Assembly: GCA_964651815.1 (NCBI GenBank)
Contig: CAZYWG010000001.1
Span: 129,189 to 193,188 of the forward strand
DNA from: an uncultured Gammaproteobacteria bacterium
GTDB lineage: Bacteria > Patescibacteriota > Microgenomatia > Levybacterales > GWA1-39-11
Direction of reading: 5' to 3'
Length of the DNA: 64,000 nucleotides
The notes under the pieces are model-generated. The model made no database searches. It saw only the letters and a program-made list of their open reading frames with translations, and had not been told where the DNA came from. Every line of letters begins with the position of its first letter. Within the stretch, counting starts at the first letter, position 1. Shown in pieces: positions 9,561 through 47,223 of this stretch. Both the position numbers and the translations under genes were made by a program.

Positions 9561-10751
9561 GTGAAAATATTATCAAACAAATTTTTTATAATCGGCAATC
9601 TTATCCTTTTGTTAATTGCAATTCCTGTTACTTTATTCTTTGTTAAAAAGCAGCAAGAAGTCAGAAGTAAAGCAGCCGCTTCATCTAAATTGTATTTTGC
9701 ACCATCAAGCATTAATACCTCTACAACCTGTCAGAGTTTCAACGTTGACGTTATGGTTGATCCAGGGACTAATATAGTAAATGTAGTTAAATTATATATA
9801 ACTTATGATCCAACCCTGTTATCTGTTTCGCAAATTACTCCTTCTGATGCGTTTAAAGAAACTCAAAGTGCCGCAAGTATAACTAGCGGCGCTGCTAACA
9901 TAGGATTATCTACTGGGTTTAACGCTACTTCTGTTTCTAGTGTGACAAAAGTAGCAACAATTACATTTATTCCAAAAGGCACTGGCACAGCACAAATTCA
10001 ATTCGATGGGACTCAAACGGCGGTGTACTCCACCGCAAAAGCAGACGGAGCGGTAGAAAATGTTCTTCAAATAGGATCTTTGGCACCGGCAAATGCTACT
10101 ATTGGATCTGCGGAATGCCTATCAGGCCCAACAGGCTCAGTCACACCTACGGGCACGGGCTCGATCACGCCAACTGGATCTATCGCGCCAACAGGAACTC
10201 CTAGTGTAACAACAACTACATCACCAACGCCTTCTGCAGCTACTCTGGCGCCGACTTGCACAAGTTTGCTTGCAAGTCCTTCCACGGGCAACGCCCCGCT
10301 TGCCGTTCTTTTTACAGGACAGGGAAGTGATCCAAATGCAAATGGTCTAATAACTAAAGCGACATTTACTTTTGGTGATGGACAAACGCAAGATGTAACA
10401 ACAGGGCTCAATTTGAAAACTGTTAACACACAAACAAGCCATACATATCAAACTAGCGGATCATTCACAGCAACTGTTTTGTTTACTAATAATCAAAGCG
10501 CAACAAGCCAAATAAGCCAAGCGTGTTCTCAGAGTATAAATGTAACAGCAGCGTCCGGTTCGGCAACTCTTACTCCAACCGCAACCTTAATACCAACGGC
10601 AACGCCGACTTTGGTAGAAAAGCCTACAGCAACACCAACGCTCGTTGAAAAGCCAACGATTGCGCAAACAGGGAGCGTTGCCCAAACCATGGGTACACTT
10701 GGGGTAATAATAATGTCAATAGTTGGCGGCTTCTTCTTGCTAACTCTTTAA
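9561..10751 (+). CDS. Cell-surface protein: N-terminal signal/TM anchor, cohesin-like domain, PKD-like domain, Thr/Pro-rich tandem repeats and a C-terminal hydrophobic tail
   Basis: N-terminal TM helix. Cohesin-like region NVDVMVDPGTNIVNVVKLYITYDPTLLSV. PKD-like region GNAPLAVLFTGQGSDPNANGLITKATFTFGDGQ. Tandem repeat PTATPTLVEK x2. C-terminal sequence IAQTGSVAQTMGTLGVIIMSIVGGFFLLTL. Confidence 0.55.
   Translation: MKILSNKFFIIGNLILLLIAIPVTLFFVKKQQEVRSKAAASSKLYFAPSSINTSTTCQSFNVDVMVDPGTNIVNVVKLYITYDPTLLSVSQITPSDAFKETQSAASITSGAANIGLSTGFNATSVSSVTKVATITFIPKGTGTAQIQFDGTQTAVYSTAKADGAVENVLQIGSLAPANATIGSAECLSGPTGSVTPTGTGSITPTGSIAPTGTPSVTTTTSPTPSAATLAPTCTSLLASPSTGNAPLAVLFTGQGSDPNANGLITKATFTFGDGQTQDVTTGLNLKTVNTQTSHTYQTSGSFTATVLFTNNQSATSQISQACSQSINVTAASGSATLTPTATLIPTATPTLVEKPTATPTLVEKPTIAQTGSVAQTMGTLGVIIMSIVGGFFLLTL
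10593..10658 (+). repeat. Near-perfect 30-nt tandem repeat (2 copies) encoding PTATPTLVEK within the surface protein
   Basis: ccaacggcaacgccgactttggtagaaaag / cctacagcaacaccaacgctcgttgaaaag, read directly from the sequence. Confidence 0.7.
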
Positions 10752-12609: not shown

Positions 12610-14067
12610 ATGCATAATAAAGATACAAAACAATATCCGGCTCCACTTCCACCCTTTGATATAAAACAGCAGCTTAAAGATACAATTCAGGAAAAATGTG
12701 GTGTTTTTGGAATATGGGGAAAGGACTTTGGTGCCTCTCAAATCGCCTATTATGGACTTTGGGCGCTTCAGCACAGAGGGCAAGAAGCAACTGGAATTAG
12801 TAGTACGGACGGCGAAAAATTATACACAAAAAAAGGGGAGGGTCTTGTAGCCCACGTTTATGCCGAAAAGGATTTAATTAAATTAAAGGGACATGCCGCA
12901 ATTGGACATAATCGCTATGGAACATCCGGTAATAAAAGGGTCGTCCATCCTCAACCCGCAACCGGTATAAGCGGTAAATTAGCCCTTGCCCACAACGGAA
13001 ATCTTTTTTCAACAAAAAAACTAGAAGAATTTTTTAGGAAAAATCATATCCAAGCACGAGGCTTAAATGACTCCGAAATGATGCAAAGAGCTTTAGAATT
13101 TGTTTTTACTAAAACAGGATCTTTGGAAAAAGCTGTTAGAACCTGCTTTCCGCTTTTCACAGGAACCTTCTGCTTATTACTCTTAACAAAAGATGAGCTC
13201 GTTGCAGTAAGAGATTCATTTGGAATTCGCCCACTTTGTCTTGGTAAACTCAACAAAGGGTATGTTGTTGCATCTGAAACTTGTGCACTGAACGCTGTCT
13301 ATGCAAAATACATAAGAGAAGTGTTACCCGGAGAAATGTTAGTAATAAATAAAAAGGGATTAAAGTCATACGGACTTGCAACGGGTACACAAAAACTTGA
13401 CGTTTTTGAATTTATATATTTTGCAAGACGCGATAGTGTTCTTCTTGGAAAAAGTGTTAATCAAATTAGAAGAAATTTGGGTATACAATTGGCCCGTGAA
13501 TGCAAAAATTTAAAAGCAGACCTTGTTATTCCAGTTCCTGACTCAGGAATTCCGGCAGCTCTTGGGTTTTCATGGCAAAGTGGAATTCCTTTTGACCATG
13601 GTTTTGTAAAAAATAGATATGTACATAGAACTTTTATTCGTCCTGTCCAGACGCATCGAGAAATTGGTGTTACATTAAAAATTAATCCACTTCCTCAAGT
13701 TCTTGGTGGGAAATCTATTGTTGTAGTGGACGATTCAATTGTTCGCGGCACTACAACTAAAAAAATTATTGCGATGCTTAAAAAAGCGGGGGCAAAAAAA
13801 GTTCATATGATGGTTTCATCCCCTCCAATTAAATATCCGGATTTTTATGGAATAGATACACCTGACCAAAAACAGTTAATCGCCGCGAATATGAATGTTG
13901 AGGCAATTAGAAAATATATTGGTGCAGATACGTTGCATTATCTATCATACGAAGGTTTATTTAATGCGATAGAACTTCCAGAACAAATGTTTTGTACAGC
14001 GCTTTTTACAGGAAACTATCCAATAGACATCATGGAGAAAAAAACCGAGGTCAATTTTGCAGTTTAA
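12610..14067 (+). CDS. purF: Amidophosphoribosyltransferase
   Basis: The N-terminal nucleophile Cys sits in CGVFGIWG. The PRTase motif VVDDSIVRGTT lies in the C-terminal half. Confidence 0.93.
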   Translation: MHNKDTKQYPAPLPPFDIKQQLKDTIQEKCGVFGIWGKDFGASQIAYYGLWALQHRGQEATGISSTDGEKLYTKKGEGLVAHVYAEKDLIKLKGHAAIGHNRYGTSGNKRVVHPQPATGISGKLALAHNGNLFSTKKLEEFFRKNHIQARGLNDSEMMQRALEFVFTKTGSLEKAVRTCFPLFTGTFCLLLLTKDELVAVRDSFGIRPLCLGKLNKGYVVASETCALNAVYAKYIREVLPGEMLVINKKGLKSYGLATGTQKLDVFEFIYFARRDSVLLGKSVNQIRRNLGIQLARECKNLKADLVIPVPDSGIPAALGFSWQSGIPFDHGFVKNRYVHRTFIRPVQTHREIGVTLKINPLPQVLGGKSIVVVDDSIVRGTTTKKIIAMLKKAGAKKVHMMVSSPPIKYPDFYGIDTPDQKQLIAANMNVEAIRKYIGADTLHYLSYEGLFNAIELPEQMFCTALFTGNYPIDIMEKKTEVNFAV

Positions 14068-16760: not shown

Positions 16761-17567
16761 TTATGACTCTTTGGCAAACTTAATCATTCCTTCAAAAATA
16801 AAACCGCCTAGCGCTTTCACGTTTCCGCGTCTCCAGTTAGGATGCTGGGTTAAATCGACAATTTTTTCAGGATGTGGCATCAGTCCAATTATATGTCCAG
16901 TTGGGTCAGTAACACCGGCAATTGCGTTAAGCGCTCCATTGGGATTTTCAGGATATTTTTGGGTGGGGCTTCCGTGATCATCAACATATCTAACAAAAAC
17001 CAAATTCTCATTTTCAATAAGAGTCAGAGTATTATTATCTGTATAAAATTTCCCCTCTCCGTGATTAACCGCAATATCAACGATTTGCCCAACATAAGGC
17101 TTAAGACAAACCGCCCGCGAATCTTCAATTCTTACTTTGACAAAACGGCATTCAAAATGACCCGAATCATTATTTGTTAAAGTGACATCCATCTCTCCAA
17201 TATGGTTAAACGGAAGAAGCCCAGTTCTTACTAAAACCTGAAATCCATTGCATATTCCAATTACCTGGCTACCTTTGGTTACAAATTCTTCAAGTTGATT
17301 TCTTAAAAAAGATACCAGCTCAGTAGCAAGGATTTTTCCAGAGACTATATCGTCCCCATATGCAAATCCTCCTGGAATTGCAAGTATATTAAACTCTTTT
17401 AATTTGCGGCTTTTATCTCTGAGCTCATTAACGTGGATAAATTCACAATCTCCACCATACTTTTGAAAAGCGTAAGACAATTCTTCGTCACAATTTATTC
17501 CGTCTGCTCTTAAAATACAAACTTTTGGTTTAATCATGGGAAAAATTTCTGCATGGGTTCTTTCCAT
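16761..17567 (-). CDS. purQ: Phosphoribosylformylglycinamidine synthase I, the glutaminase subunit
   Basis: Class-I glutamine amidotransferase with a catalytic Cys in GICNGFQVL and HGEG downstream. It overlaps the 3' end of purL by 34 nt. Confidence 0.88.
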   Translation of the reverse strand: MERTHAEIFPMIKPKVCILRADGINCDEELSYAFQKYGGDCEFIHVNELRDKSRKLKEFNILAIPGGFAYGDDIVSGKILATELVSFLRNQLEEFVTKGSQVIGICNGFQVLVRTGLLPFNHIGEMDVTLTNNDSGHFECRFVKVRIEDSRAVCLKPYVGQIVDIAVNHGEGKFYTDNNTLTLIENENLVFVRYVDDHGSPTQKYPENPNGALNAIAGVTDPTGHIIGLMPHPEKIVDLTQHPNWRRGNVKALGGFIFEGMIKFAKES

Positions 17568-20392
17568 GCATTTTTGAGTGCATCGATATTTTCTTCAAAA
17601 AGATTTTTATTAGATTGGCCGACGGTTATAAAATTATTTTTCGTTGTTTTACCGACTATTTTGTACGGTACTTTCTTAAATAAGTTTCTGGCGACATTGC
17701 TGCTCTCGACTTCCACAATAAAGCAACCTGCCGTTTCATTGAATAAAAAGTTTTCGGCAATTTCTTTTTTTGGGATTTCAATATTTACGCCAACACCACC
17801 CCCAATACACATTTCAAAAATTGAAGTGATTAGACCGCCTTCTGAAACATCATGACATGCAAGGATTTTTCCGCTCTTTATTCCTTTATAAATTGAGGTA
17901 AATATGCGAGGTAAAGTTTTTAAATCAGCTCTTGGGACGTCTCCCCCAGAAATCATTAAGCTTTCTAAAAATACTGATCCTCCCATTGCATCCATGTGTT
18001 GCTTACCGACAAGACAAATGACTGAATCAGCTTTTTTAAAATCTGTTGTTGCCGTCTTTGCCACATCCGGAATCCTGCCGAATGCCGAGATACATAAAAC
18101 CGGAGGAATTTTTAAAATGAAATTATCTTTACCACGGTAAGTTGATGACAGACTGTCTTTTCCGGAAATGACAGGTGTTTTGAAAATTTTCATAAGATCG
18201 CAAACAGCATCAACTGATCGGTCGAGCGACCACAAAGATTCTTCATCAGGAAAAGGCCAAATGTAATTATTGATTAAAGATGCCTCACGATAATCTCCAC
18301 CCACTGCAACATAATTTGATAAAGCTTCAACGCCTGCCCAAATACTCCCCCAATACGGATCAATATTATTGAGAACTGGATTTAATCCATGAGAAACAAC
18401 CATACCGTATGGCTTATTTAAAATTGGACGAACAACAGACGCGTCATTCGGGGCATCAAGTTTCACTCCAGAAAAAGGCTGCACAACGCTTGTCCCTTGT
18501 ACAGTATGGTCATACAAACGGACAATAGGTTCTTTTGAGCAAATATTCCCAGATGACAGAACTTTTTTTAAAACGCTAACCCATTCACTTTTAGTTTTTA
18601 TTCGAATGGATTTACCTTGAACGCGTACCGAAGAGACGGGTTGAATGGGTTTTTTTGCAACCATTTTTCTTTGCGGAAGACCATTGTGTAAGAATCCCAT
18701 ATCAAGATCTGCCACAAGTTCTTTTCCATAATAAACTTCCAGTTTTTTATTTCCGGTAAAAACTCCTAGCTCTGAGAATTCAACATTATATTTTTTGCAA
18801 ATTTTGGCAAATGTTGTAATTTTATTTTTGGGAACTACAACAATCATCCTCTCTTGGGACTCAGAAAGCCAAATTTCCCAAGGGGAAAGTCCCGGGTATT
18901 TTAACCGTTCATTTTTAAGTTGGACTTTTACACCAGTCTCCTTGCCAATTTCTCCAATTGCAGAAGATAAACCACCTCCACCGCTATCTTGAAGTGCCCG
19001 TATTATTTCTTTATCTCTCGCTTCAATTATTGCATCAAACATTCTTTTTTCTTCGATCGCATTTCCTATCTGAACTGCCTGCGCGTTGACTGAGATAGTT
19101 TGGTGAGTCATTTCACCACTGGAAAAAGTTGCGCCGTGAATTCCGTCGCGGCCAACTCTTCCACCCACGCTTATAACTTTATCTCCGACAACGGGCTTTC
19201 CAATCTTTGCGAGTTTTTTTGGTAAAATCCCATATGCGCCAACAAGCACCGTAGGTTTTGCGCGGAAGTCATCATGAAAATGAAATGAACCGTTGTTGGT
19301 TGGAATTCCCATACGGTTGCCGTAATCGCGAACCGCAGCGACAACACGTTTCAGCATATAATCAGGTGCAAGACATCCGGGTGGAAGAATTGATTTTGGC
19401 ATAGTAGGTAGCGCAAGACAAAAAATGTCAGTTGAAACAAGAGTTTTTGCGCCTTGTCCAGTTGCAACAATATCCCTAAACACTCCGCCGGATCCGGTCA
19501 TAGCTCCTCCGTATGGCTCAATTGCCGAAGGGCTGTTGTGAGTTTCCGCCTTTCCGCAAATTGCCCATCCATCATAAAAATCTGTAACCCCCGAATTATC
19601 AACAAATGCTGAGACAATAAGTTTTTTGTGTTTTAAAGCTTCTTTTTGAATTCTTTTAATTAAGGGCTCCTTTGCTTTGCCATCAACAGTGAGCTTTGCC
19701 CTAAATGTCTTGTGTCCCGAATGTTCACTCCAAGTTTGCGCCAACGTCTCAACTTCACAATCTGTTGGATCCCGCTTAATTTTCTCAAAATAAGCCTGAA
19801 TTACTTTCATCTCTGTAAGATTTAAGAAAAGCTTTCCACGCGAGAGTTGAACAAGCTCCTCATCATTCATTTTGCGGATTTTAATAACTTTTGTTTTTCC
19901 AACAATTCCAGTTATCTGAAGTGTTTTTGGTGCTTTTTCAACTATTTGTTCAATCAGCTTGTTGTACAAATTAAGCTTGTTAATATTATCGACAGCGTTT
20001 TTCTTGTTTGCACCAAAAAGGTAATATTCTGTGCTTGCATCGGCTGCTTTGAGTTTAACGTTAAGATCCCGAGCCGCCTTCATAATTGATGCCACCTCAG
20101 GATTCATAACTCCCGGCTTATAGGCAATCTCAATAACTGCAGACTCTGTCTTTGCGAGACCGAAGGTCGAAGCAATCTCTTTTTGGGAGTTTAATGAATA
20201 GATTTGATTTATTTTTTCGCAAAATAATTTTTCTGCTAAAATCTTGGCTGCTTTTTGATCAATTCCTTCAAGCCTATAAACTCGTGCTGTCCTAACATTT
20301 GCTATTTTAGGGTTTTTTAAATCTTGCTTTACGTTGAGGCCTTTTGTGTCGTCTCGGGCTAGAGCCTGTATTACACGAATTGTTTGAATCAT
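17534..20392 (-). CDS. purL: Phosphoribosylformylglycinamidine synthase II (PurL) with an N-terminal ~190-aa extension that looks like two tandem PurS-like modules (a PurS-PurS-PurL fusion)
   Basis: The PurL core begins at ...AQTWSEHSGHKTFRAK. The N-terminal segments IRVIQALARDDTKGLNVKQDLK... and IEIAYKPGVMNPEVASIMKAARDLN... resemble PurS (compare TLKPGVLDPQG). No separate purS ORF is present. Confidence 0.85.
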   Translation of the reverse strand: MIQTIRVIQALARDDTKGLNVKQDLKNPKIANVRTARVYRLEGIDQKAAKILAEKLFCEKINQIYSLNSQKEIASTFGLAKTESAVIEIAYKPGVMNPEVASIMKAARDLNVKLKAADASTEYYLFGANKKNAVDNINKLNLYNKLIEQIVEKAPKTLQITGIVGKTKVIKIRKMNDEELVQLSRGKLFLNLTEMKVIQAYFEKIKRDPTDCEVETLAQTWSEHSGHKTFRAKLTVDGKAKEPLIKRIQKEALKHKKLIVSAFVDNSGVTDFYDGWAICGKAETHNSPSAIEPYGGAMTGSGGVFRDIVATGQGAKTLVSTDIFCLALPTMPKSILPPGCLAPDYMLKRVVAAVRDYGNRMGIPTNNGSFHFHDDFRAKPTVLVGAYGILPKKLAKIGKPVVGDKVISVGGRVGRDGIHGATFSSGEMTHQTISVNAQAVQIGNAIEEKRMFDAIIEARDKEIIRALQDSGGGGLSSAIGEIGKETGVKVQLKNERLKYPGLSPWEIWLSESQERMIVVVPKNKITTFAKICKKYNVEFSELGVFTGNKKLEVYYGKELVADLDMGFLHNGLPQRKMVAKKPIQPVSSVRVQGKSIRIKTKSEWVSVLKKVLSSGNICSKEPIVRLYDHTVQGTSVVQPFSGVKLDAPNDASVVRPILNKPYGMVVSHGLNPVLNNIDPYWGSIWAGVEALSNYVAVGGDYREASLINNYIWPFPDEESLWSLDRSVDAVCDLMKIFKTPVISGKDSLSSTYRGKDNFILKIPPVLCISAFGRIPDVAKTATTDFKKADSVICLVGKQHMDAMGGSVFLESLMISGGDVPRADLKTLPRIFTSIYKGIKSGKILACHDVSEGGLITSIFEMCIGGGVGVNIEIPKKEIAENFLFNETAGCFIVEVESSNVARNLFKKVPYKIVGKTTKNNFITVGQSNKNLFEENIDALKNAWKEPMQKFFP

Positions 20393-42972: not shown

Positions 42973-43248
42973 TTAAATTTTAATCAGCACTTTTCCCAAA
43001 ATATTTTCTTTCTTAATTGGTTCGACTTTTAAACTATCGTTCATATTGTCTCCCCCAACAACAAAAAATTCTTGATTTATTTTTGTGATACGTTTGATGA
43101 TAATTCTATCATTATATTTGAACAAGATCACATCACCAACGCGAGGGTCTCTGAAAAAATAAGGAATTGAGCTAATAATTACATGATTGTTGGGCTTGAA
43201 TGTAGGCAACATGCTATGACCTGAAATCTTAAACAAACCGAGGATCAT
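42973..43248 (-). CDS. sodX: NiSOD maturation protease SodX (small S26-family signal-peptidase-like serine protease)
   Basis: 91-aa protein. SGHSMLPT contains the SGSM-type nucleophile, and KRITKI contains the general-base Lys. It lies immediately downstream of sodN. Confidence 0.75.
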   Translation of the reverse strand: MILGLFKISGHSMLPTFKPNNHVIISSIPYFFRDPRVGDVILFKYNDRIIIKRITKINQEFFVVGGDNMNDSLKVEPIKKENILGKVLIKI

Positions 43249-43253
43249 GGAGA

Positions 43254-43784
43254 TTATTTGTGCATCACTATTTCTCCGCCAGTTGGATATCCAGATGGAA
43301 CGTGGATAGATTCAAGGTTTTTTGTTTTGTAAAAAATCTCGGCAATTTTTTGAGTATTTTCGAGAAGCTCATTTGCTGCAACTTTATCAATATTCTGTCT
43401 GACTTTAATAGAAAGTTTTACGGTGGACGACAAAAGCGCTTGAAGTTCTGGATATTTCTCATGGTGCTCGGGTTTAAAATAATCATTTTCAAGAGTCCCC
43501 AATTCTTCTTCAACTATTCCACCGTGCTCTTCTTTTACATGAACCATCCGTGCAATATCATGTTCTGTTTTTGTTTCATCTTCCCTTTTCAATTCGCTGA
43601 TTAATGAAGTCATACGAATAACCGTATGCGCTGCCATTTGAATACCATGAACATCATAAACCCCGCATGGTATATCACAATGCGCATAAGCAATTGGCGT
43701 AGGAATTAAATTGACAAAAAGAGGTATAATTTTTAGAACTTTTTTTGTCACCCTGAACGAAGTGAAGGACCTTATACTCACCAT
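43254..43784 (-). CDS. sodN: Nickel-containing superoxide dismutase precursor (NiSOD)
   Basis: The Ni-hook motif HCDIPCGVYD (43653-43682) follows a 34-aa leader ending AYA. Confidence 0.9.
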   Translation of the reverse strand: MVSIRSFTSFRVTKKVLKIIPLFVNLIPTPIAYAHCDIPCGVYDVHGIQMAAHTVIRMTSLISELKREDETKTEHDIARMVHVKEEHGGIVEEELGTLENDYFKPEHHEKYPELQALLSSTVKLSIKVRQNIDKVAANELLENTQKIAEIFYKTKNLESIHVPSGYPTGGEIVMHK

Positions 43785-43928
43785 AATTCTATATTAGACT
43801 AACACATGAAGGTTTGAATTTCAATATAAATCTGCAATAAATATGAACATATCCAAAACTACCATTTGATGGATCGCAATCTAGACTATAATAAACGCGT
43901 TAAGAAAATATGTTAAAGAATAAAAATC

Positions 43929-44480
43929 CTAAGCGGCTTTTCTCAGCTCTTGAGTAACAAATCTTTGTATTACCGGTACTGCTTGACCAGGCACCGGCAT
44001 ACCTCTTTGAATTCCCATCTCCGAAAGCTTTTGCGTCGCCCCTGACCAACCAACTAATTCTGAGATTGGATCAACCTTCTCATTGGTTCTAGACTGGTAA
44101 GTAACTATCAACTCTTCACCATTTTTTACACCTACAATTAAGGCTTTTTTACCCTCTGACCAAGTAAGATACCTTGCTGCAATACCAAAGAAATCTTGCT
44201 CCTCAGGAATAATATCACCGGAGTGTCGTGGTAAATCCAATCTTACCAAACTCACTGTTTTGCAAATCTGTCCAGGTTTTCCTAACCCTCCAAGAACCTC
44301 TTGATTCACAAGCTCAAGTGAAGGAGTTACATGCAAACCTTCCAAAACCTGCCTGCCAAAAACAGCATTTAATCTTGCGAGGCTCTCAGGATATGGCGAG
44401 ACATAAGGCTCGGCTTTATCAACGATTTTTCCTTTGTCTCTTGCTAAATCCCTTAAACTATCAATGAATTGTTCTGCCAT
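43929..44480 (-). CDS. Hypothetical protein (183 aa) with no recognisable motif and slightly elevated GC
   Basis: Clean ORF co-directional with the downstream ATP-cone nuclease gene. No TM helix. GC is visibly higher than its flanks. Confidence 0.4.
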   Translation of the reverse strand: MAEQFIDSLRDLARDKGKIVDKAEPYVSPYPESLARLNAVFGRQVLEGLHVTPSLELVNQEVLGGLGKPGQICKTVSLVRLDLPRHSGDIIPEEQDFFGIAARYLTWSEGKKALIVGVKNGEELIVTYQSRTNEKVDPISELVGWSGATQKLSEMGIQRGMPVPGQAVPVIQRFVTQELRKAA

Positions 44481-44514
44481 ATTAATTGTGATTTTACAAC
44501 TTATAAGCTATTTG

Positions 44515-45351
44515 TCAATTTTCTCCGCAGATAAGACTAGCGGATTTTTTAATTTCGGCAACTCTTTGTTTATCTATCATGTATTTGGTAACAAATTCAT
44601 CTTCGGGAATTTTTATAAGATCTGAGGCGAGCACAATATCATTGTCTATCAATCTCCTTTTTTCTTCGGTTGTCAGATCTGTCATTATCGTCACAGGGTA
44701 CATTTTTGGCCTCTCAACAAAGTCTTGAAGACTTTCATTATCCGGATAATTCCACGCAAGAGTCTTTATTCCTTTACACTCGGCATATGTAATTGCATCA
44801 ACCGTAAGCTTTGTATTTGTTGCCACCCACACGGCCTCTATCTTGTTTCTTTCCTTAATATCAAGGAATCTGGCATAAGTATAAAGCAAAACTTGCACAT
44901 CTGTTTTTCCAAAACTTTGATTGTGGAATTTTGCCTCAATTATTTCCCTCTTCCCATTTTTCTCAAGTAAAACATCTATCTCATGAGAAACACATTCACC
45001 TTGCATTATAAGATCAACCTGAGTTTTATATCCTTGACTCTCAAAAATTCTTGCTAAATATTGCTCGAATGGAAAACCGGTTGGTCCAAGTTCAAAAATT
45101 CCCTGGCGTAGATTAAAACGCAAAGCGCTTTTTCTATCTTTATGGACCAAAAATTCCCTGATGTGATAAAAAATCTCATCAGTTGTAATTGTATTATCCG
45201 TTTGGACCCGTTCTTTAATGTGCTCAAGGACGCGGTCAAAAAGCTCTTTTGGAACTCCACTTCTTTCCATGGAGCGAATAACGCGCATATCATCAAACAC
45301 AACCTGCTCTCCATCTCGCTTTATAACGGTTATTGGGGACTGGGCAGTCAT
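44515..45351 (-). CDS. ATP-cone domain fused to an Mrr-type (PD-(D/E)xK) restriction-endonuclease-like domain
   Basis: N-terminal ATP-cone ITVIKRDGEQVVFDDMRVIRSM. C-terminal Mrr_cat-like YLARIFESQGY...HEIDVLLEKNGKREIIEAKFHN with a D...E.K catalytic pattern. Confidence 0.6.
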   Translation of the reverse strand: MTAQSPITVIKRDGEQVVFDDMRVIRSMERSGVPKELFDRVLEHIKERVQTDNTITTDEIFYHIREFLVHKDRKSALRFNLRQGIFELGPTGFPFEQYLARIFESQGYKTQVDLIMQGECVSHEIDVLLEKNGKREIIEAKFHNQSFGKTDVQVLLYTYARFLDIKERNKIEAVWVATNTKLTVDAITYAECKGIKTLAWNYPDNESLQDFVERPKMYPVTIMTDLTTEEKRRLIDNDIVLASDLIKIPEDEFVTKYMIDKQRVAEIKKSASLICGEN

Positions 45352-45414: not shown

Positions 45415-47223
45415 TTAAAAGCTGGAAAGTAATGCTTGGATATCAGTGTTTAGAATTAGATACGCACTTTCATTAACATGTTTTCCTCGCTGCGCGCCTA
45501 AATCATTTAACAATGCGCTCAACACATTCTTTTGGGAAGTTTTATCTTTTGATGCACTCTGAACTTTTGAAAGTAAATCTTTACAAATCCCAGAATTATC
45601 TATACTCCCGTTATTACAAAGAGTATTTATATCATTAATAAGACTATTAAAGGTAATCAATTTGGTAATTGAATCATTTTGTGAGTTGTTATGGTTAAAG
45701 TTAATGACATAAATATCACTGTTTGTGTTAATTAAATTCCCAAAAAAGTCTCCTGTTACATCTTGGGCGGTGTTATCAAAAAGGTCAGATTCAAGGTGGT
45801 AGCTTTGATTTGTAGGGGAAGAAATAGTTACATAATATTTGCCACTTGATGGCTTTTTGATATAGTAGATCTTAACTGGGTCTCCACTCGCCACTCCTTC
45901 TGGATCGTCTATTAATGGTTGCTCCATAACTACTCCACCAACAGGAAGGAAGTTTTGATCTGTTACAAAAATATTCACAGAAGGATTAACATACAGCTCA
46001 ATCAGCGATCCGTCGGAATTTGCTGGTGCAAAATGTTTTATTGAAGAAAAAACACCACCATAATCTGTCAAAGTTGTTTTGTTATAAAAGGGATCGTTTA
46101 TAGAAAATGTTGCACTAGTAGTACCGGTTGTAATTACAAAATGGCCACTGTTATTGACCCCAAGTATGTCTGGCTGATGATTTTGTATATCTGTAGTTAA
46201 CTGGGTGTTTGTTGCAGCCGCGAGTGGATCAAACTCTAAAAGATCGTAATGAAAATTAGGATTTGCTGATCGAGCAAGATGTGATAGTTTTGAAATTGCA
46301 CCCCAATTGACATATCCATTCTCAATGTAAGACTTTGAATTTGTCTCAAACCAACTATTTAAAGTTCCAGGGTTTAAGTCTGTTCCATCTGGGAGGTGTG
46401 TGATTCCATAGTATCTTAATAGCATTACGGATGAAGTTAGCGCACATCCCCATCTTGAAATATCTGTTGCTTGTGGAGGAGTCAAGGTTGGCGCCCAAAG
46501 ATTTGCAGAATCATAAAGTTGCCCACCCCAAGCATTATCTGTTTGCTTAAGAAGCGGGACACTAAGATTAACAGAATTACCGTCAATGGTACTAACAACA
46601 ATATTGTCAAAATGAGTTTCACTTGAAGAATCACCACCTACACCCGCTCTCAATCCTATTGTACCTAAAGGCAAAGGTGATGATAAATATATCTCCCTAA
46701 CAAGCAAATTATTTATAAAAACCTTTATATCATCAACATTTACAATAATCTTAACATGATAAGTGCTACCATTTTGATAGTTTTGAGGTACGTTCACTAA
46801 TATCTGGTCTATTGGACCTCCAATTGCGAAATCTCCAGGTGATTGGAAGTGAACTTCGTACAAGGTTAAGGAATTTGGCTCAATTATGTAAGGAAGGTTG
46901 TGATCTGTCCCATTTACAAATTTCATATCCAGTTCTATTTCATATTTGTTTAGAGGAGTAGTCCATTCGGATGGTTTAGGGATTATATTACTTGCACAAC
47001 TAGGTTCGTTTTGAATTTTCATCACAACTTCACCATTCTCTACTACCCATTGAGCACTACATGTAGGTGGAAAATTAAACGGTATCCAGCGAGATGGAAA
47101 TGAATCATTAGGATAAGAATCAAAATTGTCTTGAAATATCGTTGAGGCAAAAATATGTTTCGTAAAAATCGGCGAAAGAAAAAAACACAGCAAAACTAAT
47201 AGGGCAAGATATAGTCTTTTCAT
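45415..47223 (-). CDS. Secreted multidomain protein: signal peptide, LamG/ConA-like domain and a C39-like papain-fold cysteine peptidase domain
   Basis: Signal peptide MKRLYLALLVLLCFFLSPIFTKHIFAST. DNFDSY...HFDNIVV is a LamG_3-like signature. VPLLKQTDNAWGGQLYD...RWGCALTSSVMLLRYYG is Peptidase_C39_2-like with a candidate catalytic Cys. Confidence 0.45.
   Translation of the reverse strand: MKRLYLALLVLLCFFLSPIFTKHIFASTIFQDNFDSYPNDSFPSRWIPFNFPPTCSAQWVVENGEVVMKIQNEPSCASNIIPKPSEWTTPLNKYEIELDMKFVNGTDHNLPYIIEPNSLTLYEVHFQSPGDFAIGGPIDQILVNVPQNYQNGSTYHVKIIVNVDDIKVFINNLLVREIYLSSPLPLGTIGLRAGVGGDSSSETHFDNIVVSTIDGNSVNLSVPLLKQTDNAWGGQLYDSANLWAPTLTPPQATDISRWGCALTSSVMLLRYYGITHLPDGTDLNPGTLNSWFETNSKSYIENGYVNWGAISKLSHLARSANPNFHYDLLEFDPLAAATNTQLTTDIQNHQPDILGVNNSGHFVITTGTTSATFSINDPFYNKTTLTDYGGVFSSIKHFAPANSDGSLIELYVNPSVNIFVTDQNFLPVGGVVMEQPLIDDPEGVASGDPVKIYYIKKPSSGKYYVTISSPTNQSYHLESDLFDNTAQDVTGDFFGNLINTNSDIYVINFNHNNSQNDSITKLITFNSLINDINTLCNNGSIDNSGICKDLLSKVQSASKDKTSQKNVLSALLNDLGAQRGKHVNESAYLILNTDIQALLSSF

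What the first reader, a model, noticed from the sequence alone, without database searches (positions are those of the whole stretch)
43929..45351. ATP-cone-regulated Mrr-type nuclease with an adjacent higher-GC hypothetical gene: a candidate nucleotide-sensing defence module
The 278-aa protein fuses an ATP-cone, the ATP/dATP-sensing domain of NrdR and ribonucleotide reductases, to a PD-(D/E)xK Mrr_cat restriction-endonuclease fold (catalytic pattern D...E.K in HEIDVLLEKNGKREIIEAKF). Immediately downstream on the same strand is a 183-aa protein with no recognisable domains and GC content above the local background, suggesting horizontal acquisition. A nuclease gated by nucleotide-pool state is a plausible anti-phage or abortive-infection effector. 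The pair is wedged between a redox enzyme locus and a secreted peptidase, an accessory context.
Basis: partly seen in the sequence, partly recalled or inferred. Interest (0 to 1): 0.6.

Follow-up and report, generated by a model that had tools for sequence, protein, structure and literature searches.

The report
Conserved ATP-cone nuclease, not a defence module
The 278-aa gene is a well-conserved, vertically inherited member of an uncharacterised archaeal and Patescibacterial nuclease family that carries an ATP/dATP-sensing domain; its 183-aa neighbour is a fast-evolving, lineage-restricted gene, and nothing marks the pair as an anti-phage system.

Summary
Both ORFs exist as described. The 278-aa protein has three domains: ATP-cone, Mrr_cat PD-(D/E)xK nuclease and a C-terminal AF1548-like helical domain. 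E96, D126, E139 and K141 are invariant across archaeal and bacterial relatives.

It belongs to a large, database-annotated but functionally unstudied family. The family includes AF1548 (PDB 1Y88), whose crystallised form lacks the ATP-cone.

In Levybacteria-like Patescibacteria the gene keeps a fixed syntenic position: C39-like protein > nuclease > NiSOD/SodX > methyltransferase < FemAB < UvrD. It diverges at about the rate of UvrD and FemAB. No defence models, phage or viral-contig relatives, or defence neighbours were found in about 15 different contexts.

The 183-aa ORF is a real gene. Its raised GC lies in codon positions 1 and 2, while GC3 is host-like, so recent transfer is not indicated. 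It has two very divergent homologues at the same position in two other genomes, each behind its own promoter-like site. Most relatives lack it, so it is not an obligate partner.

The most likely function is a housekeeping nuclease gated by ATP/dATP, acting in nucleic-acid turnover, salvage or repair. That role is inferred, not shown.

The parts
44515..45351 (-). Gene for the 278-aa ATP-cone / Mrr_cat / AF1548-like_C protein (AF1548-like family)
   Evidence: ORF. Pfam domains. PDB 1Y88 at E = 1e-32. AlphaFold model with pLDDT 93. 650 homologues.
45118..45333 (-). ATP-cone domain (residues 7-78), with the V-x-K-R-D-G...F motif
   Evidence: Pfam PF03477, 24.5 bits against a cut-off of 25.8. All 42 family members hit it. 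The family profile aligns to the ATP-cones of NrdD, NrdR and NrdA. Foldseek hits to NrdR and RNR cones. K11, G14 and F19 are conserved in at least 90% of sequences.
44764..45078 (-). PD-(D/E)xK nuclease domain (Mrr_cat, residues 92-196)
   Evidence: Pfam PF04471, 34.5 bits, above the cut-off. Structural match to 1Y88.
44929..45066 (-). Catalytic core segment from E96 through D126 and E139 to K141
   Evidence: Translation checked. These residues are invariant in 42 archaeal and bacterial sequences. They are equivalent to D38/E51/K53 of AF1548 (PMC1874628).
44536..44700 (-). C-terminal helical AF1548-like_C domain (residues 218-272), helix-hairpin-helix-like, probably DNA-binding
   Evidence: Pfam PF22357, 19.9 bits. 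35 of 42 relatives hit it, and one also hits HHH_5. The alignment to 1Y88 runs to residue 269.
43929..44480 (-). 183-aa lineage-restricted gene of unknown function. It belongs to a fast-evolving small-protein family found directly 3' of the nuclease in three species.
   Evidence: ORF. It is alone in 5.8 billion clusters and in a full HMMER scan of 1.84 billion representatives. Positional homologues L016:6862-7455 and L020:683-1228 match at pairwise BLASTP E = 1e-5 and 2e-6. The GC1 > GC2 > GC3 pattern is typical of coding sequence. None of 2000 shuffles gave an ORF of 183 codons; the longest was 162.
44491..44518 (-). Sigma-70-like promoter candidate (TTGACA-16 nt-TAAAAT) in the 34-nt spacer. 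The -10 element ends 10 nt before the ATG of the 183-aa gene, so the mRNA would have little or no leader.
   Evidence: Best match in the region, 11 of 12 positions. L016 (TGGTATAAT, 9 nt before the ATG) and L020 (TATAAT, 7 nt before the ATG) have the same arrangement. This is a consensus match only, not shown to be functional.
42973..43784 (-). Syntenic context downstream: Ni superoxide dismutase (sodN) and its S26-type maturation peptidase (sodX-like)
   Evidence: Pfam Sod_Ni and TIGR02753; Peptidase_S26/S24. Conserved after the nuclease in most clade-A loci.
45415..47223 (-). Syntenic context upstream: 602-aa Peptidase_C39_2-domain protein
   Evidence: Pfam. Present directly upstream in 42 related loci.

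Best explanation
The 278-aa gene is an ordinary, vertically inherited chromosomal member of the AF1548-like family. The family's layout is an N-terminal ATP-cone, a Mrr/Hjc-like PD-(D/E)xK nuclease and a C-terminal helical (HhH-like) domain. It occurs across Archaea and Patescibacteria.

Shown:
- the three-domain architecture;
- an intact, invariant E-D-ExK catalytic constellation;
- wide distribution;
- fixed synteny, and divergence comparable to UvrD and FemAB;
- absence from phages and from known defence models.

Inferred:
- It is a metal-dependent nuclease that binds DNA through the C-terminal domain.
- Its activity or oligomeric state is switched by ATP versus dATP bound to the ATP-cone, as in NrdR and ribonucleotide reductases. 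Nucleic-acid cleavage would thus be coupled to the adenine-nucleotide pool.
- The physiological role I rank first is nucleic-acid turnover that feeds nucleotide salvage or catabolism. DNA repair is a close second.

The 183-aa gene is a real, rapidly evolving, lineage-restricted gene. It occupies a variable slot just downstream of the nuclease and probably has its own promoter. It is dispensable for the nuclease, because most relatives lack it. The two genes do not form a recognisable two-gene system.
For: Architecture and active site.

Family breadth:
- 650 close relatives.
- 236 relatives of the archaeal branch, nearly all carrying ATP-cone + Mrr_cat + AF1548-like_C. They include a 265-aa protein 99% identical to the crystallised AF1548.
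- 177 GTDB species representatives.
- At least 588 metagenome loci.

Core-gene behaviour:
- Clade A synteny: methyltransferase < C39-like > nuclease > [slot] SodN > S26 peptidase > methyltransferase > FemAB < UvrD <.
- Clade B synteny: DUF2079 > nuclease > DinB <.
- Paceibacteria-like lineages: MnmA > nuclease > MgtC > AlaRS.
- Mean identity to the window protein is 62% for the nuclease, against UvrD 68, FemAB 63, SodN 53 and TIM 41 in the same loci.

No defence signal.

Hints of a link to nucleotide metabolism:
- Plasmids of Pontibacter and Criblamydia both carry nuclease > beta-CASP/RMMBL nuclease > thymidine/AMP-phosphorylase-family protein > PRPP synthetase.
- In Bathyarchaeia the gene overlaps the end of an AMP-phosphorylase-like gene that follows an IF-2B (ribose-1,5-bisphosphate-isomerase-like) gene.
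- LOG-like nucleosidase, NUDIX, Maf, and PyrB-, PyrC- and PyrD-like genes are immediate neighbours in several Patescibacterial lineages.
- The family's spread over Archaea and Patescibacteria resembles that of the AMP phosphorylase/RuBisCO nucleoside pathway (PMC5113843, PMC6389311).

Small gene.
Against: - No biochemical data exist for any member. Nuclease activity, the substrate (DNA or RNA) and nucleotide binding are all inferred.
- The window protein's ATP-cone score is marginally below Pfam's cut-off.
- The nucleotide-metabolism neighbours appear in a minority of contexts. None of the 80 metagenome loci carries the MBL/phosphorylase/Prs trio.
- That trio is common on proteobacterial plasmids without the nuclease.
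- DNA-repair neighbours are about as frequent: DinB, UvrD, HhH-GPD, LigD_N, Pur_DNA_glyco.
- Prevalence within whole Patescibacterial genomes was not measured, so 'core' rests on synteny and divergence rather than on a presence/absence matrix.
- A sensor-plus-PD-(D/E)xK layout is also what CRISPR-associated effectors such as Card1 and Can2 look like.
Confidence: 0.55

Rival explanations
1. DNA repair or recombination nuclease. The protein would be a structure-specific (Hjc/RecU-like) or damage-processing endonuclease, licensed by the ATP/dATP state so that DNA is cut only when precursors for resynthesis are available.
For: - The nuclease domain belongs to the Mrr/Hjc neighbourhood of the PD-(D/E)xK superfamily (PMC3424549). 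Some relatives also hit Pfam Hjc, and JGI names several 'Holliday junction resolvase'.
- The C-terminal HhH-like domain suggests binding to DNA without sequence specificity.
- Repair neighbours include a convergent DinB in 27 clade-B loci, UvrD four genes away in clade A, and a DnaQ-like exonuclease upstream.
- Further repair neighbours are HhH-GPD and LigD_N flanking it in Altiarchaeales, and Pur_DNA_glyco nearby in Korarchaeota.
Against: - Each repair association is one synteny block, not an independent recurrence.
- Geoglobus keeps a separate canonical Hjc about 2 kb away.
- No repair neighbour is shared between lineages.
Confidence: 0.22
2. One reading: a nucleotide-sensing anti-phage or abortive-infection nuclease, with or without the 183-aa protein as partner. 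It would fire when phage infection perturbs ATP/dATP pools.
For: - The ligand sensor plus PD-(D/E)xK effector layout parallels Card1, Can2 and Cdn1 (Foldseek E about 1e-4). PADLOC gives a weak CARF_PDDEXK hit.
- Two homologues are plasmid-borne.
- The gene borders a variable slot.
- The neighbour evolves very fast, as conflict genes do.
Against: - Conserved synteny and housekeeping-like divergence.
- Very wide, apparently one-per-genome distribution in Patescibacteria and Archaea.
- No significant defence-model match.
- No relatives in phages or viral contigs.
- No defence genes adjacent in about 15 contexts.
- The partner is absent from most relatives.
- The plasmid copies sit in metabolic cassettes.
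Confidence: 0.08
3. An NrdR-like, non-catalytic DNA-binding regulator. The ATP-cone would control DNA binding by the nuclease-fold and HhH domains to regulate dNTP-related genes.
For: - The ATP-cone's best-understood non-RNR role is in the repressor NrdR (structures 7p37 and 9fvr matched).
- JGI labelled one homologue 'NrdR family'.
- Inactive restriction-endonuclease folds do serve as DNA-binding modules.
Against: - E96, D126, E139 and K141 are invariant from Archaea to Bacteria, which argues for catalysis.
- There is no Zn-ribbon.
- No ribonucleotide reductase gene is adjacent in any context examined.
- No second ATP-cone protein or RNR lies in the window.
Confidence: 0.05
4. The 183-aa protein is a dedicated modulator of the nuclease (an inhibitor or adaptor), making a lineage-specific two-gene unit.
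For: Three independent genomes keep a homologue in exactly the same position and orientation, 4-35 nt after the nuclease gene, despite only 21-29% identity.
Against: - It is absent from closer relatives of the window's nuclease (82% and 79% identical: L006, L004) and from all other lineages.
- Each copy has its own promoter-like element.
- The same slot holds unrelated genes elsewhere.
- Positional conservation could simply be inheritance followed by loss.
Confidence: 0.1

Closest known systems
AF1548 of Archaeoglobus fulgidus (PDB 1Y88; Pfam PF22357 AF1548-like_C with PF04471 Mrr_cat). Sources name its relatives 'ATP cone domain-containing protein' or 'restriction endonuclease'.
   Same: Same three-domain architecture in the full-length relatives. 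Same catalytic D/E/K. Alignable over residues 98-269 at E = 1e-32, with target-normalised TM 0.82. It is likewise a single gene in housekeeping contexts.
   Different: Only 32-39% identical to the archaeal members, and bacterial (Patescibacteria). The solved structure lacks the ATP-cone. No member has a tested function, so membership gives an architecture but not a mechanism.
E. coli Mrr-type type IV restriction endonucleases
   Same: The Mrr_cat PD-(D/E)xK catalytic domain. PMC3424549 groups 1Y88 with Mrr_cat and COG1787.
   Different: The Mrr N-terminal winged-helix reader of modified DNA is replaced by an ATP-cone. An extra C-terminal helical domain is present. Synteny is conserved, rather than the patchy island distribution of restriction genes.
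NrdR and the ATP-cones of ribonucleotide reductases
   Same: A homologous ATP-cone with the VxKRDG...F signature. The presumed logic, an ATP/dATP-dependent conformational or oligomeric switch, is borrowed from these proteins.
   Different: No Zn-ribbon and no RNR catalytic domain. No genomic link to nrd genes. The output domain is a nuclease.
CARF-domain PD-(D/E)xK effectors: Card1, Can2, Cdn1, VC1899
   Same: A nucleotide-ligand sensor domain fused to a PD-(D/E)xK nuclease. These are the next-best structural matches after 1Y88. PADLOC gives a weak CARF_PDDEXK hit.
   Different: The sensor is an ATP-cone, not CARF. Similarity is confined to the nuclease fold (query-normalised TM about 0.3). 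No CRISPR or cyclic-oligoadenylate context.
Archaeal Holliday-junction resolvase Hjc
   Same: Related PD-(D/E)xK fold. A few relatives also hit Pfam Hjc, and JGI annotates some as resolvase.
   Different: Twice the size, with sensor and HhH-like domains. Geoglobus encodes a separate Hjc nearby. No junction-resolving evidence.

Membership tests
AF1548-like ATP-cone nuclease family | N-terminal ATP-cone domain | tested here: met
   PF03477 at E = 4e-5, 24.5 bits against a cut-off of 25.8. All 42 relatives hit it. Profile and fold matches to NrdD, NrdR and NrdA cones.
AF1548-like ATP-cone nuclease family | Mrr_cat PD-(D/E)xK domain with an intact E...D...ExK motif | tested here: met
   PF04471 at 34.5 bits, above the cut-off. 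E96, D126, E139 and K141 are invariant.
AF1548-like ATP-cone nuclease family | C-terminal AF1548-like helical domain | tested here: met
   PF22357 at 19.9 bits, below the cut-off of 23.9. However, 1Y88 aligns through residue 269 at E = 1e-32, and the structural match has target-normalised TM 0.82.
AF1548-like ATP-cone nuclease family | Nuclease activity and ATP/dATP binding | not testable with these tools
   No biochemical data were found for any member.
Type IV (Mrr-like) restriction endonuclease | N-terminal Mrr_N winged-helix DNA-reader domain | tested here: not met
   The N-terminus is an ATP-cone. There is no Mrr_N hit.
Type IV (Mrr-like) restriction endonuclease | Accessory, patchy, island-like distribution | tested here: not met
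   Fixed synteny and housekeeping-like divergence.
Known anti-phage defence systems (PADLOC models) | Significant match of either protein to a defence-system model | tested here: not met
   The nuclease has only weak hits (CARF_PDDEXK at E = 4e-4, Cas4 at 0.013). The 183-aa protein has none.
Two-gene nuclease/partner module (toxin-immunity style) | Partner gene co-occurs with the nuclease across relatives | tested here: not met
   Relatives of the 183-aa protein follow the nuclease in 3 species only (window, L016, L020) among 175 loci. None was found in a metagenome scan.
NrdR | N-terminal Zn-ribbon followed by the ATP-cone; regulon of nrd genes | tested here: not met
   The ATP-cone starts at residue 7, with no Cys-rich ribbon. 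No nrd genes lie in any neighbourhood.
CARF-nuclease CRISPR ancillary effectors (Card1/Can2) | CARF sensor domain and type III CRISPR context | tested here: not met
   Only the nuclease domain aligns (query-normalised TM about 0.3). There are no cas genes nearby.

The most novel reading that the evidence does not exclude
The AF1548-like family may be the first class of nucleases under ATP-cone allosteric control. On this reading it is a conserved Patescibacterial and archaeal switch that couples breakdown of DNA or RNA to the ATP/dATP pool. It would supply nucleotides to salvage and to the AMP-phosphorylase/RuBisCO nucleoside pathway that these reduced-genome lineages depend on. The small, probably leaderless downstream gene would be a lineage-specific modulator.
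Probability: 0.2. Interest if true: 0.65.

Novelty: new member of a known kind. Interest (0 to 1): 0.3.

Why it matters
As a defence candidate, this finding should be dropped. What remains is a tidy lead. A very widespread, strongly constrained gene of Patescibacteria and many Archaea joins the classic dATP/ATP sensor of ribonucleotide reductases to an intact nuclease. No member has been studied, and the only crystal structure lacks the sensor domain.

If ATP or dATP does gate cleavage, the known uses of the ATP-cone would extend beyond dNTP synthesis and its repressor. It could also explain how organisms that live on scavenged nucleic acids control their breakdown.

The analysis gives two cautions for genome scans:
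- Raised GC in an AT-rich genome can come from amino-acid composition alone.
- An apparent ORFan can still have positional homologues that sequence searches miss.

Tried and rejected
1. Hidden structured RNA. I tested whether the GC-rich 183-codon stretch hides a structured RNA. Rfam found nothing at gathering thresholds over the window, or at E <= 1 over 43700-44600. tRNA/tmRNA scans found only two tRNA-Ser genes, far away.

2. WD40 hit for the 183-aa protein. The only non-self hit in the 1.84-billion-protein HMMER scan was a 1591-aa STAND/WD40 protein, matched by eight repeats to residues 99-132. I rejected it as repeat-inflated chance.

3. More relatives of the 183-aa family. None turned up in:
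- a metagenome pattern scan;
- phage genomes;
- PHROGs, Pfam or a PDB profile search;
- six-frame translations of all fetched loci.

4. Structure of the 183-aa protein. The single-sequence AlphaFold model had pLDDT 36 and was unusable.

5. General link to the plasmid cassette. I tested whether the beta-CASP/phosphorylase/Prs cassette accompanies the nuclease generally. None of the 80 closest metagenome loci has it. The trio is common on proteobacterial plasmids without the nuclease. It is kept only as a hint.

6. Inverted repeat around the small gene. A 14-nt repeat brackets it (43708-43721 and 44508-44521). I judged it to be at chance level for AT-rich sequence and did not take it as an insertion scar.

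8. Literature. Searches for ATP-cone combined with endonuclease, Mrr, restriction or defence found no study of this architecture.
Full report
**Observation**

The window is AT-rich (about 35% GC). It carries GroEL, LepA, PurF, PurL, MurJ, UvrD and FemAB. Identical or near-identical proteins come from Patescibacteria, mostly Levybacteria-type genomes.

Both ORFs in the finding are real. One is a 278-aa ORF at 44515-45351 (-). The other is a 183-aa ORF at 43929-44480 (-), 34 nt downstream on the same strand.

Pfam gives three domains for the 278-aa protein:
- Mrr_cat, residues 92-196, above the curated cut-off.
- ATP-cone, residues 7-78, 24.5 bits against a cut-off of 25.8.
- AF1548-like_C, residues 218-272, below the cut-off.

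The two marginal calls are secured independently:
- The protein aligns to PDB 1Y88 (AF1548) over residues 98-269 at E = 1e-32.
- All 42 members of a diverse family alignment hit ATP-cone and Mrr_cat, and 35 hit AF1548-like_C.
- The family profile aligns its N-terminus to the ATP-cones of NrdD, NrdR and NrdA.
- An AlphaFold model (pLDDT 93, pTM 0.85) matches 1Y88 at target-normalised TM 0.82. Its other matches are the CARF-nucleases Cdn1, Card1 and Can2 (nuclease fold) and the ATP-cones of NrdR and RNR.

E96, D126, E139 and K141 are invariant in 42 archaeal and bacterial sequences. They correspond to the D38/E51/K53 predicted as catalytic in AF1548 (PMC1874628, PMC1821046).

**What family it is**

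A search with the crystallised part of AF1548 returned 236 relatives. Almost all are 260-280 aa with ATP-cone + Mrr_cat + AF1548-like_C. One of them is a 265-aa protein 99% identical to AF1548. The 199-residue PDB entry is therefore an N-terminally short version, and the three-domain layout is the family norm.

Distribution of members:
- Archaea: Archaeoglobi, Korarchaeota, Bathyarchaeia, Aenigmarchaeota, Nanoarchaeota and Altiarchaeales.
- Patescibacteria: Levy-, Roizman-, Pacei-, Jorgensen- and Saccharibacteria and WWE3.
- Sporadically elsewhere: plasmids of a Bacteroidota and a Chlamydiota species.

Source databases already name these proteins 'ATP cone domain-containing protein', 'restriction endonuclease' or 'Holliday junction resolvase'. 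I found no functional study. PMC3424549 groups 1Y88 with Mrr_cat and COG1787.

**Core gene or accessory gene**

Gene neighbourhoods were clustered for 89 loci.

In the window's clade (at least 50% identity) the order is fixed: SAM-methyltransferase < C39_2-domain protein > nuclease > [variable slot] > NiSOD > S26 peptidase > methyltransferase > FemAB < UvrD < TIM >.

A second Levybacterial clade (about 40% identity) has DUF2079 > nuclease > DinB <. Paceibacteria-like metagenome loci have MnmA > nuclease > MgtC > AlaRS. Other blocks have LOG-like > nuclease > ThiI, nuclease > GyrA, or thioredoxin and thioredoxin reductase nearby.

Mean identity to the window's proteins across the same loci:

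| Protein | Identity |
|---|---|
| UvrD | 68% |
| FemAB | 63% |
| Nuclease | 62% |
| Methyltransferase | 57% |
| SodN | 53% |
| S26 peptidase | 46% |
| TIM | 41% |
| C39-like protein | 36% |

The nuclease therefore evolves like a constrained, vertically inherited gene.

Evidence on a defence role:
- PADLOC gives only weak fold-level hits.
- tblastn finds nothing in 50,697 phage genomes.
- A pattern scan of IMG/VR finds no relative.
- BFVD has only single-domain matches.
- In archaeal genomes the neighbours are permeases, CorA, AMP-phosphorylase-like and IF-2B genes, DNA glycosylases, DJ-1 and redox genes. None is a defence gene adjacent to the nuclease.

**The 183-aa ORF**

It has no family match. 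It was the only member of its cluster in 5.8 billion clusters. A full HMMER scan of 1.84 billion representatives added only a repeat-inflated WD40 artefact. No Rfam family covers the stretch.

It is nevertheless a gene:
- 2000 shuffles of its 552 nt never gave an ORF of 183 codons; the longest was 162.
- Its GC1 > GC2 > GC3 profile (0.55, 0.39, 0.32) is that of coding sequence in this genome.

Its overall GC of 0.422 is about 2 sd above the window's ORFs. GC3, however, equals that of the conserved nuclease gene.

Searching the fetched loci showed that the ORFs at the same position in two other species are homologous to it. These are L016:6862-7455 (197 aa) and L020:683-1228 (181 aa). Both lie directly 3' of the nuclease orthologue on the same strand. 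Pairwise BLASTP gives E = 1e-5 and 2e-6, and they share the motifs L..VN.E.l.G.GK and SYL.W...(I)VG..nG.

Those homologues show the same pattern: GC raised in positions 1 and 2, with host-like GC3. The GC excess is therefore a property of the protein's composition, which is rich in G, V, E, P, Q and R and poor in K, N, I and F. It is not a sign of recent transfer.

All three copies have a -10-like hexamer 7-10 nt before the ATG. In the window it is part of the best promoter match in the region, TTGACA-16-TAAAAT. This suggests separate, nearly leaderless transcription, though that is inference from consensus matches.

The family is absent from closer relatives of the window's nuclease (L006 at 82%, L004 at 79%) and from every other lineage. 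In those genomes the same slot is empty or holds EamA + NUDIX, PyrC-like/PyrD-like genes, or a PyrB-like gene. It is thus a fast-evolving occupant of a variable slot, not an obligate partner.

**Mechanism**

Shown: a sensor domain homologous to the ATP/dATP-binding cone, an intact PD-(D/E)xK site, a C-terminal helical domain, and housekeeping-like conservation.

Inferred, by analogy with NrdR and ribonucleotide reductases: ATP and dATP binding changes conformation or oligomeric state and so gates cleavage. In those proteins nucleotide loading of the cone changes oligomerisation and output; the structures matched are 7p37, 9fvr, 8p28 and 5im3, and the cone's behaviour is described in PMC11226230 and PMC5794259.

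For the physiological role I rank nucleic-acid turnover and nucleotide salvage first. The reasons:
- Two unrelated plasmids, from Pontibacter and Criblamydia, carry the same co-directional cassette. It reads ATP-cone nuclease > beta-CASP/RMMBL metallo-nuclease > thymidine/AMP-phosphorylase-family protein > PRPP synthetase.
- In Criblamydia the cassette sits beside phosphoketolase, glycogen phosphorylase and acetate kinase.
- In Bathyarchaeia the gene overlaps the end of an AMP-phosphorylase-like gene that follows an IF-2B-family gene.
- Several Patescibacterial blocks place LOG-like nucleosidase, NUDIX, Maf or pyrimidine genes next to it.
- The family's Archaea-plus-Patescibacteria spread resembles that of the AMP-phosphorylase/RuBisCO nucleoside pathway (PMC5113843, PMC6389311).

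The support is limited:
- None of the 80 nearest metagenome loci has the cassette.
- The MBL/phosphorylase/Prs trio is common on proteobacterial plasmids without the nuclease.
- DNA-repair neighbours (DinB, UvrD, HhH-GPD, LigD_N, Pur_DNA_glyco) are about as frequent.

A repair or recombination role is therefore a serious rival. The defence reading and an NrdR-like non-catalytic regulator are less likely, for the reasons given above.

**Verdict**

The sequence observation is correct. The nucleotide-sensing nuclease reading remains the best mechanistic guess. The defence module, horizontally acquired partner and accessory context are not supported.

The gene is a new member of a known, annotated but uncharacterised family. 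It is of modest interest as a lead for biochemistry, and of low interest as a scan hit.

Noticed in passing
PDB 1Y88 versus P0123: The crystallised AF1548 (199 residues) lacks the ATP-cone. A 99%-identical 265-aa gene model and nearly all archaeal relatives carry it. The only solved structure of the family therefore omits its regulatory domain.
   Followed up: partly
L094:1972-6597 (Pontibacter plasmid NZ_CP021236) and L095:8001-12608 (Criblamydia plasmid NZ_LK031773): The same four-gene co-directional cassette occurs in two unrelated phyla. It reads ATP-cone nuclease > beta-CASP/RMMBL metallo-hydrolase > thymidine/AMP-phosphorylase-family protein > ribose-phosphate pyrophosphokinase. In Criblamydia it lies next to phosphoketolase, glycogen phosphorylase and acetate kinase.
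   Followed up: partly
L180, L181, L182 (Legionella, Ralstonia and Sphingobium plasmids): The MBL / thymidine-phosphorylase-family / Prs trio, or the last two genes alone, is widespread on proteobacterial plasmids (153 records). There it sits among heavy-metal ATPases, universal stress proteins and FtsH, without the ATP-cone nuclease. It looks like an uncharacterised mobile stress or metabolic cassette.
   Followed up: partly
window 44481-44518; L016:6826-6861; L020:650-682: All three homologues of the small gene have a -10-like hexamer only 7-10 nt upstream of the ATG and no Shine-Dalgarno sequence. L016 even has CCTCC there. This suggests leaderless or near-leaderless mRNAs.
   Followed up: partly
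window 42973-43784: A Ni superoxide dismutase with the AHCDIPCGVYD processing site, followed by its S26-type maturation peptidase. The sodN ORF is 176 aa here against 160 aa in relatives, so the annotated start may be 16 codons too early.
   Followed up: no
Slot between the nuclease gene and sodN in L006, L008, L014-L016, L020, L024-L039: The position just 3' of the nuclease gene is a hotspot of gene-content variation among otherwise syntenic Levybacterial genomes. It can be empty, or hold the small ORF family, EamA + NUDIX, a PyrC-like amidohydrolase plus unknown gene plus PyrD-like DHO dehydrogenase, or a PyrB-like (Asp/Orn) carbamoyltransferase.
   Followed up: partly
Loci L012, L017, L020-L047 and others: Many GTDB records titled 'uncultured Gammaproteobacteria bacterium' (binchicken/SRP co-assembly MAGs) carry loci with typical Levybacteria synteny and 50-78% identical proteins. 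The record titles appear to be mislabelled.
   Followed up: no
window 12610-14067 and 17534-20392: PurF-like amidophosphoribosyltransferase and PurL-like FGAM synthase genes are present. This Patescibacterium therefore encodes at least part of de novo purine synthesis.
   Followed up: no
window 9753-10751 (+): A 332-aa PKD-domain ORF has the highest GC in the window (0.446, with GC2 of 0.58). This is another case where composition, not necessarily transfer, raises GC.
   Followed up: no
L026 and L030 (both from MAG CAZMSF01): Two contigs of one MAG each carry a copy of the nuclease (57% and 55% identity to the window) in similar synteny. Strain mixture in the bin is more likely than true paralogy.
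   Followed up: no
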